A stretch of 64,000 nt of DNA. Origin: a virus (Duplodnaviria > Heunggongvirae > Uroviricota > Caudoviricetes). The stretch is taken from IMG/VR virus record IMGVR_UViG_3300031418_000001; one strand, 5' to 3'. The position numbers and the translations under genes are program-made. Positions 45,296 to 45,649 of the stretch are shown in pieces. Below the pieces are notes generated by a model. That model made no database searches and had not been told where the DNA came from. It was given only the letters and a program-made list of their open reading frames with translations. Each line of letters opens with the position of its first letter. The first letter of the stretch is position 1.

Positions 45296-45649
45296 ATGGA
45301 TATTAAAATTTATGGTCAGCATGTAGAAGTTACTGAGGCTATTCGTGAACACGTAGAATCACAGTTTAATAAACTTCACAAATTCAGCAACTATATTCAG
45401 AACGTGAATGTAATGATTGCTGTACGTGGTGGTATTGATCATACTGCAAAGTGTACTATTAAAGTACCTCATCACAATGATATTCATGCTGAAAGTACTT
45501 CGACTGATATGTACAATAGTATTGACAGTCTTTCTCTTAAACTGGAACAACAGCTTCGTAAAATTAAAGGTATCAAAGAAAGCAGTGTTACCCGTAATAC
45601 TGTAGATTTTGACACACAAGAAGATGATAACCAGGAAGACGAACAATAA
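45296..45649 (+). CDS. hpf: ribosome hibernation promoting factor (HPF/RaiA/YfiA family)
   Basis: MDIKIYGQHVEVTEAIREHVESQFNKLHKFSNYIQNVNVMIAV ... DMYNSIDSLSLKLEQQLRKIKG aligns along its length with E. coli HPF (MQLNITGNNVEITEALREFVTAKFAKLEQYFDRINQVYVVLKV ... DMYAAIDGLIDKLARQLTKHK); ATG 45296 after AAGGAGAAG. Confidence 0.8.
   Translation: MDIKIYGQHVEVTEAIREHVESQFNKLHKFSNYIQNVNVMIAVRGGIDHTAKCTIKVPHHNDIHAESTSTDMYNSIDSLSLKLEQQLRKIKGIKESSVTRNTVDFDTQEDDNQEDEQ

What the first reader, a model, noticed from the sequence alone, without database searches (positions are those of the whole stretch)
45296..45649. Phage-encoded ribosome hibernation promoting factor
Alignable along its whole length with E. 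coli HPF, including the N-terminal beta-strand MxIxIxGxxVEVTEALRE and the C-terminal DMYxAIDxLxxKLxxQLRK helix. A viral HPF could park host ribosomes or protect them from nucleolytic attack during infection. It is an unusual auxiliary gene.
Basis: partly seen in the sequence, partly recalled or inferred. Interest (0 to 1): 0.6.

Follow-up and report, generated by a model that had tools for sequence, protein, structure and literature searches.

The report
Jumbo-phage HPF/RaiA-family ribosome hibernation gene
A giant bacteriophage carries a real copy of the bacterial protein family that plugs and idles ribosomes; such phage copies have been described since 2012-2019 and are annotated in this phage's relatives, but nobody has yet shown what they do.

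Summary
Window 45296-45649 (+) is a 117-aa gene with a strong Shine-Dalgarno site and a conserved terminator. It passes the curated thresholds of Pfam Ribosomal_S30AE (79.6 bits against 23.7) and TIGR00741 HPF/YfiA (81.2 against 40.9). Its predicted fold superposes on solved HPF structures (rmsd 1.2 A). The window is a jumbo myovirus; the nearest isolate is Xanthomonas phage XaC1.

The gene is not new. It sits in the same slot (lysozyme, S30AE gene, CCA-adding enzyme, Nudix, glutaredoxin, YqeY) as annotated genes in phages GAP32, Serratia BF, Yersinia fHe-Yen9-04 and XaC1. Mizuno et al. 2019 described phage HPFs, including GAP32's.

Residues 1-91 are closer to E. coli HPF (40% identity) than to RaiA (32%). 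The protein misses both E. coli-type equivalog cut-offs. It lacks the long-HPF dimerisation domain, and no phage record encodes RMF. Every member of this phage clade has a 22-41-residue acidic C-terminal tail that resembles RaiA's.

The best reading is a factor that blocks the 30S decoding site and parks or protects 70S ribosomes, and does not build 100S dimers on its own. Function is untested. The only published test, on the unrelated rV5 HPF, found no ribosome association. Interest is low to moderate.

The parts
45284..45289 (+). Shine-Dalgarno sequence AAGGAG, 6 nt spacer before the ATG
   Evidence: Read directly from the sequence.
45296..45649 (+). CDS, 117 aa, HPF/RaiA-family (Ribosomal_S30AE) protein. 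[quoted passage not shown]
   Evidence: dN/dS is 0.06-0.09 for the core and 0.12-0.36 for the tail.
45569..45646 (+). Codons for the C-terminal tail GIKESSVTRNTVDFDTQEDDNQEDEQ (9 acidic and 2 basic residues, pI 4.1)
   Evidence: pLDDT is below 50 for residues 99-113. An acidic tail of 22-41 residues is present in all 19 cluster representatives of the jumbo-phage clade.
45676..45703 (+). Intrinsic-terminator-like hairpin (9-bp stem AAGGACAGT/ACTGTCCTT, 5-nt loop) followed by a T run. It closes the lysozyme-HPF transcription unit.
   Evidence: Folding energy is -11.7 kcal/mol, z = -4.0, and 0 of 200 shuffles fold as well. It is conserved in place and sequence in L012, L013, XaC1 and, as a variant, in Serratia BF. 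It occurs once in the window.
44311..45282 (+). Upstream gene: phage lysozyme, 323 aa. Its stop lies 13 nt before the HPF start, so the two are probably co-transcribed.
   Evidence: PF00959, E 7.6e-15. The same neighbour is present in XaC1, BF and GAP32.
46041..47162 (+). Downstream conserved neighbour: tRNA nucleotidyltransferase (CCA-adding enzyme). It is context, not part of the gene.
   Evidence: PF01743 and PF12627. Synteny is shown.

Best explanation
This is the jumbo-phage ortholog of GAP32_183, BF gp186 and XaC1 ORF256: a short, single-domain member of the HPF/RaiA (S30AE) family under purifying selection. Shown here: family membership, the fold, retention of most residues that contact the ribosome in solved HPF complexes, phage origin, conserved synteny and the transcription-unit structure. 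Inferred: like every characterised family member, it sits in the channel between head and body of the 30S subunit, over the A- and P-site decoding region. There it excludes mRNA, tRNA and initiation factors and idles vacant ribosomes. It has no long-HPF dimerisation domain, and no phage RMF exists, so it cannot make 100S dimers by itself. Its conserved acidic tail matches the architecture of RaiA/YfiA, whose tail runs toward the RMF site. I therefore expect it to hold ribosomes as inactive, nuclease-protected 70S monomers, and in RMF-bearing hosts to compete with RMF/HPF-driven dimerisation. The surrounding genes (RNA ligase, 2H phosphoesterase, CCA-adding enzyme, YqeY) point to a role in keeping the translation apparatus intact during infection.
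For: Family membership: PF02482 79.6 bits against GA 23.7; TIGR00741 81.2 against 40.9; PHROG 8990 E 8e-17; 26 PDB HPF/RaiA/pY sequences at E <= 1e-4.
Fold: the AF2 core has pLDDT above 90 with order b-a-b-b-b-a. The top 39 Foldseek hits are all HPF/RaiA/pY. The best is V. cholerae HPF, with target TM 0.92-0.93 and rmsd 1.2 A over 91-93 columns.
Contact residues: these were mapped by the alignment onto those listed for E. coli-type HPF in bioRxiv 10.1101/2025.10.07.680626. K26, Y30>F30, T53>T54, H55>K56, E60>D62, H62>H64, D75>D77, K80>K82, K87>K89 and K89>K91 are kept or conservatively replaced. K26/K29/K82 also match by position (my own alignment from memory, not run) S. aureus K27/R30/K84, which are needed for ribosome binding (PMC4889938).
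Selection: dN/dS is 0.06-0.12 overall.
No self-dimerisation: the only significant Pfam domain is PF02482, and tblastn with E. coli RMF finds nothing in 50,697 phage records.
Tail: all 19 clade representatives have 22-41-residue net-acidic tails. E. coli RaiA has a 24-26-residue tail ending EEVEEE, while the nearest bacterial short HPFs have 8-11-residue tails. The RaiA profile aligns to residue 102 here and across nearly its whole length in the Erwinia-phage ortholog. The RaiA tail is reported to run toward the RMF site.
Context: the RNA-repair and tRNA-repair neighbours are conserved across the lineage.
Against: There is no experimental evidence for any member of this clade. The only phage HPF tested (rV5, a separate lineage) was absent from high-salt-washed 70S and 100S ribosomes and did not change 100S levels in E. 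coli. Two contact positions are not kept: R83, which contacts m4C1402, is Q85 here and Ala in the GAP32/BF subclade, and K91 is I93. The core is more HPF-like than RaiA-like (40% against 32% identity; 65.8 against 45.6 bits). The tail resemblance to RaiA is one of length and charge, with no demonstrable homology. Acidic-ended tails recur in about 9 of 68 short cellular relatives sampled, so they could be convergent. The host is unknown. If it is Xanthomonas-like it may lack RMF (bioRxiv 10.1101/2025.11.04.686544), which would make the RMF-competition step irrelevant. Expression timing is unknown.
Confidence: 0.55

Rival explanations
1. It is a true short-HPF-type factor. It binds the decoding site and cooperates with the host's RMF to convert 70S into 100S dimers, shutting down or storing host ribosomes.
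For: The core is closest to gammaproteobacterial short HPFs: 40% identity to E. coli HPF, an HPF profile score above the RaiA score, and V. cholerae and E. coli HPF as best structural matches. Known hosts of related phages are Gammaproteobacteria, and many of these have RMF.
Against: The score is half the HPF equivalog cut-off. The 26-residue acidic tail is absent from E. coli-type HPF and resembles that of RaiA, which antagonises RMF-dependent dimerisation. The phage supplies no RMF. The rV5 HPF did not change 100S levels.
Confidence: 0.15
2. It is an anti-hibernation competitor. The protein displaces or excludes host HPF/RaiA/RMF but is itself easily released, for example by the phage's own IF3. 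This keeps ribosomes of starved or defence-arrested cells available for phage mRNAs (the hypothesis of Mizuno et al. 2019).
For: The idea is proposed. The lineage also encodes an IF3 homolog. Loss of the R83 contact could weaken binding. The tail may block RMF. RMF is reported to be induced by the DRT2 defence.
Against: Most other contact residues are retained, which argues for normal, inhibitory binding. There is no measurement of affinity or release. A protein that occupies the A and P sites is inhibitory while bound.
Confidence: 0.2
3. It no longer acts on ribosomes. The S30AE fold has been re-used for another partner, or the gene is a neutral passenger.
For: The rV5 HPF was not found on ribosomes. 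S. aureus HPF has a second, non-ribosomal partner (YwlG; abstract of PMC9522360, listed). The GAP32/BF subclade core is very divergent, at 22-24% identity to E. coli HPF/RaiA, and barely passes TIGR00741 (42-45 bits against 40.9).
Against: Purifying selection is strong (dN/dS about 0.1). The gene is retained in one syntenic slot across genera with roughly 21-22% intergenomic similarity (PMC11273794). The basic and aromatic ribosome-contact residues are conserved.
Confidence: 0.08

Closest known systems
Phage S30AE/HPF genes of the GAP32 / Serratia BF / fHe-Yen9-04 / XaC1 jumbo-phage lineage (GAP32_183, BF gp186, g181, XaC1 ORF256; PHROG 8990)
   Same: They share the Pfam family, the syntenic slot (lysozyme, S30AE, small ORFs, CCA-adding enzyme, Nudix, glutaredoxin, YqeY, macro domain, neck), a length of 111-129 aa, an acidic tail and a terminator after the gene. 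They group together in a rough NJ tree.
   Different: This protein is 63% identical to XaC1's over the aligned 93 residues and only 27-36% identical to the GAP32/BF subclade. The phage itself is not among sequenced isolates; the best DNA match is 74.5% identical.
E. coli / V. cholerae short HPF (YhbH; PDB 2rql, 4hei, 6h4n)
   Same: The fold is the same (rmsd 1.2-1.5 A). Identity is 40%, and most 16S rRNA and uS9 contact residues are kept.
   Different: This protein is 22 residues longer and has an acidic tail. R83 is replaced by Q. It falls below the equivalog cut-off (65.8 against 125). There is no adjacent rpoN operon context and no RMF partner in the phage.
E. coli RaiA / YfiA / protein Y (PDB 1n3g, 4v8i)
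   Same: It is a single S30AE domain followed by a flexible tail of about 25 residues ending in a D/E cluster. Total length is 113 against 117 aa.
   Different: The core is only 32% identical. The score is 45.6 bits against a cut-off of 158. The tail similarity is compositional.
rV5-like (Vequintavirinae) phage HPF, the only phage HPF tested experimentally (Mizuno et al. 2019, PMC6375957)
   Same: It is also a phage-encoded single-domain S30AE protein of about 105 aa.
   Different: It is a separate acquisition: 22% identical to this protein, it groups with E. coli HPF, has a basic Gly/Lys tail (pI 10.0 against 4.1) and sits in a different genomic context.
Long HPF of Firmicutes, Thermus and cyanobacteria (PDB 5myj, 5njt, 6gzx)
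   Same: The N-terminal domain is homologous; the best PDB sequence hit is L. lactis HPF, E 1e-13.
   Different: This protein has no C-terminal dimerisation domain (PF16321), so it cannot form 100S by the long-HPF mechanism.

Membership tests
HPF/RaiA family (Pfam PF02482 Ribosomal_S30AE; TIGR00741) | Profile HMM score above the curated threshold | tested here: met
   PF02482 scores 79.6 bits against 23.7, covering profile positions 1-85 of 88. TIGR00741 scores 81.2 against 40.9.
HPF/RaiA family (Pfam PF02482 Ribosomal_S30AE; TIGR00741) | [quoted passage not shown] | tested here: met
   The AF2 model has E3-8, H14-33, E36-44, E48-56, E63-69 and H72-98, with core pLDDT above 90. Foldseek target TM is 0.92-0.93 and rmsd 1.2 A to 4hei.
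HPF/RaiA family (Pfam PF02482 Ribosomal_S30AE; TIGR00741) | Conserved ribosome-contact residues (basic residues of helices 1 and 2, the aromatic at position 30, the T53/H62 motif, and the H/R55 plus E60 pair that contacts uS9) | tested here: met
   Ten of twelve checked positions are kept or conservatively replaced. R83>Q85 and K91>I93 are not (alignment against contacts listed). The family-wide near-invariant residues A65, D71, M72, Y73, D77, K82, Q86 and K89 are all present.
HPF/RaiA family (Pfam PF02482 Ribosomal_S30AE; TIGR00741) | Binds the 30S decoding region and inhibits translation | not testable with these tools
   This needs biochemistry or cryo-EM. The only phage homolog tested (rV5) was not found on salt-washed ribosomes.
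Short HPF, E. coli type (NCBIfam NF007780) | Equivalog-level profile score | tested here: not met
   65.8 bits against a cut-off of 125.
Short HPF, E. coli type (NCBIfam NF007780) | About 95 aa with only a short basic C-terminus; acts with RMF to form 100S | tested here: not met
   The protein is 117 aa with a 26-residue acidic tail. No RMF homolog is found in any phage record. RMF in the host could not be tested because the host is unknown.
RaiA / YfiA (NCBIfam NF007654) | Equivalog-level profile score | tested here: not met
   45.6 bits against a cut-off of 158.
RaiA / YfiA (NCBIfam NF007654) | C-terminal extension beyond helix 2 that reaches toward the RMF site | tested here: inconclusive
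   An extension of the right length and charge is present and conserved in the clade, and the RaiA profile aligns through residue 102. Homology of the tail and its path on the ribosome are not shown. A tail-only PDB search was uninformative.
Long HPF | C-terminal dimerisation domain (PF16321) | tested here: not met
   Only PF02482 is detected. Long homologs carry PF16321, but this protein and all phage-clade members do not.
Phage-encoded HPF (Mizuno et al. 2019; PHROG 8990) | An S30AE gene in a bona fide phage genome, conserved among related phages | tested here: met
   PHROG 8990, E 8.3e-17. The window has a tail sheath, lysozyme and NrdD. The exact protein occurs on a 349,418-bp contig. It is syntenic with GAP32_183, one of the phage HPFs in Mizuno's Table 1.

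The most novel reading that the evidence does not exclude
The acidic tail, conserved across the whole jumbo-phage clade but absent from the nearest bacterial HPFs, may be an adaptation. It could turn a hibernation factor into a phage tool for controlling host ribosome dormancy. One possibility is that it blocks RMF-driven or defence-induced 100S formation, or ribosome-targeting toxins, while the phage's own IF3 selectively re-opens ribosomes for phage mRNAs. That would make it a counter-defence or ribosome-takeover factor and not a simple borrowed HPF.
Probability: 0.15. Interest if true: 0.6.

Novelty: new member of a known kind. Interest (0 to 1): 0.25.

Why it matters
Phage genes that touch the ribosome directly are few, and most have no demonstrated function. 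This lineage of very large phages has kept an HPF/RaiA-type gene under purifying selection, next to RNA-repair and tRNA-repair genes. That makes it a reasonable candidate for testing how phages manage idle or attacked ribosomes. The conserved acidic tail gives a specific, cheap experiment: wild type against tail-less protein, with and without RMF. As a discovery, however, it adds one more member to a class already catalogued in 2012-2019.

Tried and rejected
- The longer ORF from TTG 45218 (143 aa) was rejected. It overlaps the lysozyme gene, has no SD, and homologs start at the ATG.
- A PDB search with helix 2 plus the tail alone returned only spurious matches of 'KGIKESSVTRNT' to designer pentatricopeptide repeats. 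This is a chance resemblance.
- Recent capture from a host was rejected. In 1.84 billion representatives only three clusters score better than E 1e-25, all of phage-clade type. Cellular proteins start at E about 1e-12 and at most 43% identity.
- A common origin with the rV5-type phage HPF was rejected: 22% identity, different tail charge, different context and different tree position.
No hit was found in 50,697 phage records at E <= 0.01.
- An IMG/VR scan added only four loci, three of them already known.
- Rfam found no RNA family in the window, and ARAGORN found no tRNA.
- The sigma-70 promoter scan around the gene was no better than shuffled sequence, so no promoter is claimed.
- Ten full-text literature searches found annotation-level mentions only (Sharanji PMC11895373; XaC1/XbC2 PMC11273794) and one experimental test, on rV5 (PMC6375957).

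Full report
**1. The observation**

Window 45296-45649 on the + strand is an ATG-to-TAA ORF of 117 codons. AAGGAG precedes it at 45284-45289. An intrinsic-terminator-like hairpin follows at 45676-45698 with a T run after it. The hairpin folds at -11.7 kcal/mol, z = -4.0 against shuffles. The product is MDIKIYGQHVEVTEAIREHVESQFNKLHKFSNYIQNVNVMIAVRGGIDHTAKCTIKVPHHNDIHAESTSTDMYNSIDSLSLKLEQQLRKIKGIKESSVTRNTVDFDTQEDDNQEDEQ. The coordinates are exact.

**2. Family membership**

- The protein passes Pfam Ribosomal_S30AE (79.6 bits, gathering score 23.7, E 2.9e-22, profile positions 1-85 of 88).
- It passes NCBIfam TIGR00741 'HPF/YfiA family' (81.2 bits, cut-off 40.9) and hits PHROG 8990.
- It matches 26 distinct PDB sequences, all of them HPF, RaiA/protein Y or plastid pY.
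[quoted passage not shown] Residues 99-113 fall below 50.
- The first 39 Foldseek hits against the PDB are all HPF/RaiA/pY chains. The best is V. cholerae HPF 4hei, with TM normalised to target of 0.92-0.93 and rmsd 1.2 A.

**3. Phage origin**

The window carries a tail sheath and an anaerobic ribonucleotide reductase, and a phage lysozyme and an RNA ligase. Nearly all long ORFs lie on one strand. The region 44000-47200 is 74.5% identical in DNA to Xanthomonas jumbo phage XaC1, a 349-kb genome. The exact protein occurs on public metagenome contigs of up to 349,418 bp.

The local gene order is lysozyme, S30AE gene, one or two tiny ORFs, CCA-adding tRNA nucleotidyltransferase, Nudix, glutaredoxin, YqeY. 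RNA ligase, a ComF-like PRTase, a DUF2828/DUF7788 protein and a 2H phosphoesterase lie upstream. The same order is found in XaC1 (ORF256, 'ribosome-associated translation inhibitor'), Serratia phage BF (gp186) and Cronobacter phage GAP32 (GAP32_183, with two HNH endonuclease insertions). Homologs were also found by tblastn in Yersinia phage fHe-Yen9-04 (g181) and several Erwinia phages, though their gene order was not inspected. The terminator hairpin after the gene is conserved in place and largely in sequence in these relatives.

**4. Already known**

GAP32_183 has been annotated as 'sigma 54 modulation protein/ribosomal protein S30EA' in the GAP32 record. Mizuno et al. (bioRxiv 2017, 10.1101/174177; Nat Commun 2019, PMC6375957) listed HPF (PF02482) genes in seven cultivated phages: GAP32 and six rV5-like coliphages. 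They also found them in uncultivated viral contigs. They proposed that viral HPF might compete with the cellular factor to prevent dimer formation.

They tested the rV5 protein in E. coli. It was expressed but not detected in high-salt-washed 70S or 100S particles, and 100S levels did not change. Genome papers on Sharanji and XaC1/XbC2 mention the gene without experiments.

A tblastn search with E. coli HPF finds 130 phage records, mostly rV5-like. The window protein finds 24. The gene class is therefore rare (roughly 0.3% of records, some of which are probably bacterial fragments) but catalogued. I found no functional study of the jumbo-phage clade.

**5. Subtype**

- Core: residues 1-91 are closer to short HPF than to RaiA. 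Identity is 40% to E. coli HPF (E 1e-18) against 32% to RaiA (E 4e-13). The NCBIfam HPF model gives 65.8 bits and the RaiA model 45.6. Both are far below their equivalog cut-offs of 125 and 158. The same holds for XaC1, GAP32 and Erwinia-phage orthologs.
- Dimerisation: there is no long-HPF dimerisation domain.
- Tail: residues 92-117 form a tail with 9 acidic and 2 basic residues (pI 4.1), predicted disordered. All 19 cluster representatives of the jumbo-phage clade carry a net-acidic tail of 22-41 residues ending in a D/E cluster. This includes the GAP32/BF subclade, whose core is only 27-30% identical to this protein.
- Comparison of tails: the nearest bacterial short HPFs have 8-11-residue tails of the HKEKLxxH type. 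E. coli RaiA has a 24-26-residue tail ending EEVEEE. The rV5-type phage HPF has a basic Gly/Lys tail instead (pI 10.0).
- Caveat on the tail: acidic-ended long tails occur in about 9 of 68 short relatives among the top hits of an exhaustive search. The feature is recurrent in the family and not unique to phages.

The published view is that RaiA occupies the same site as HPF, and that its tail runs toward the RMF binding site, with the last ~12 residues never resolved (bioRxiv 10.1101/2025.10.07.680626).

**6. Conservation of function-relevant residues**

I mapped the residues reported to contact 16S rRNA and uS9 in E. coli-type HPF through the pairwise alignment.

- Retained or conservatively replaced: K26, F30 (for Y30), T54, K56 (for H/R55), D62 (for E60), H64, D77, K82, K89 and K91.
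- Not retained: R83, which contacts m4C1402, is Q85 here and Ala in the GAP32/BF subclade. K91 is I93.
- By position (my own alignment from memory, not run), K26, K29 and K82 match S. aureus K27, R30 and K84, whose combined mutation abolishes ribosome binding (PMC4889938).
- All family-wide near-invariant residues are present.

Nei-Gojobori dN/dS against two metagenomic relatives is 0.06-0.09 for the core and 0.12-0.36 for the tail, although the counts for the tail are small.

**7. Origin**

In a library of 1.84 billion representatives, only three clusters score better than E 1e-25. Everything else starts at about E 1e-12 and at most 43% identity. There is therefore no recent cellular donor. 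A rough neighbour-joining tree puts the two jumbo-phage subclades together and the rV5 protein with E. coli HPF. With the shared synteny and tail, this supports one old acquisition in the jumbo lineage and a separate one in rV5-like phages. The tree is crude (91 columns, distance method) and is only suggestive.

**8. Mechanism I commit to**

The protein binds the 30S decoding channel as other family members do and idles vacant ribosomes. This step is an inference from fold and contact-residue conservation. It cannot dimerise ribosomes alone, because it has no PF16321 domain and no RMF homolog exists in any phage record. By analogy with RaiA, the acidic tail would keep ribosomes as protected 70S monomers. 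In hosts that have RMF it would antagonise RMF-dependent 100S formation.

The conserved neighbourhood of RNA ligase, 2H phosphoesterase, CCA-adding enzyme and YqeY suggests a shared theme of keeping the translation machinery usable during infection. Ribosome protection from nucleases is a documented HPF role in bacteria (titles and abstracts of PMC8406268 and PMC7764885, listed).

The caveats are these:
- The host is unknown.
- Xanthomonadales may predate RMF.
- Expression timing is unknown.
- The only experiment on any phage HPF was negative.

**9. Verdict**

This is a real, correctly located, well-conserved phage gene of the HPF/RaiA family. It is a new member of a kind already described, and orthologs are annotated in the nearest relatives. 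The modest added value is the clade-wide RaiA-like acidic tail on an HPF-like core, together with the absence of any dimerisation partner.

Noticed in passing
window 37688-48360 (+): The HPF-like gene lies in a block of RNA-repair and translation-upkeep genes. These are RNA ligase 37688-38953 (PF21189 + PF09414), ComF-like PRTase 40506-41318, a DUF2828/DUF7788 protein 41397-43061, 2H phosphoesterase 43193-43666, CCA-adding enzyme 46041-47162, Nudix 47212-47688, glutaredoxin (by synteny with L003) and YqeY 47917-48360. The block is conserved in XaC1, BF and GAP32.
   Followed up: partly
window 45722-45898 and 45895-46044 (+): Two tiny ORFs (58 and 49 aa) lie between the terminator and the CCA-adding enzyme. 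Their stops and starts overlap, and they are called as genes in all near-identical metagenome loci. They have no Pfam family.
   Followed up: partly
window 9604-17818 (+): Three consecutive ORFs of about 900-980 aa (9604-12312, 12119-15067, 15080-17818) have no Pfam hit at E <= 0.001.
   Followed up: partly
window 44311-45282 (+): The lysozyme upstream of the HPF gene has a roughly 185-residue N-terminal extension before the PF00959 domain. The extension includes a hydrophobic stretch and a LysM-like 'YEVKLGDTPWKIAQ' segment. The GAP32 ortholog is annotated with one transmembrane domain.
   Followed up: no
L014 2501-2818 (phage rV5 ORF144) compared with window 45569-45646: The two independent phage HPF lineages carry tails of opposite charge. 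rV5 has GGKKGKGKGKVKIDFGE (pI 10.0). The jumbo-phage clade has D/E-rich tails (pI 4.1-4.5).
   Followed up: partly
window 45548-45550 (codon Q85): The Arg that contacts m4C1402 in E. coli-type HPF (R83), present in both E. coli HPF and RaiA, is Gln in this subclade and Ala or Ser in the GAP32/BF subclade. An adjacent R88 is gained.
   Followed up: partly
window 4138-5949 (+): An anaerobic ribonucleoside-triphosphate reductase NrdD with a glycyl-radical domain (PF13597, E 2e-163) is encoded in the same window.
   Followed up: no
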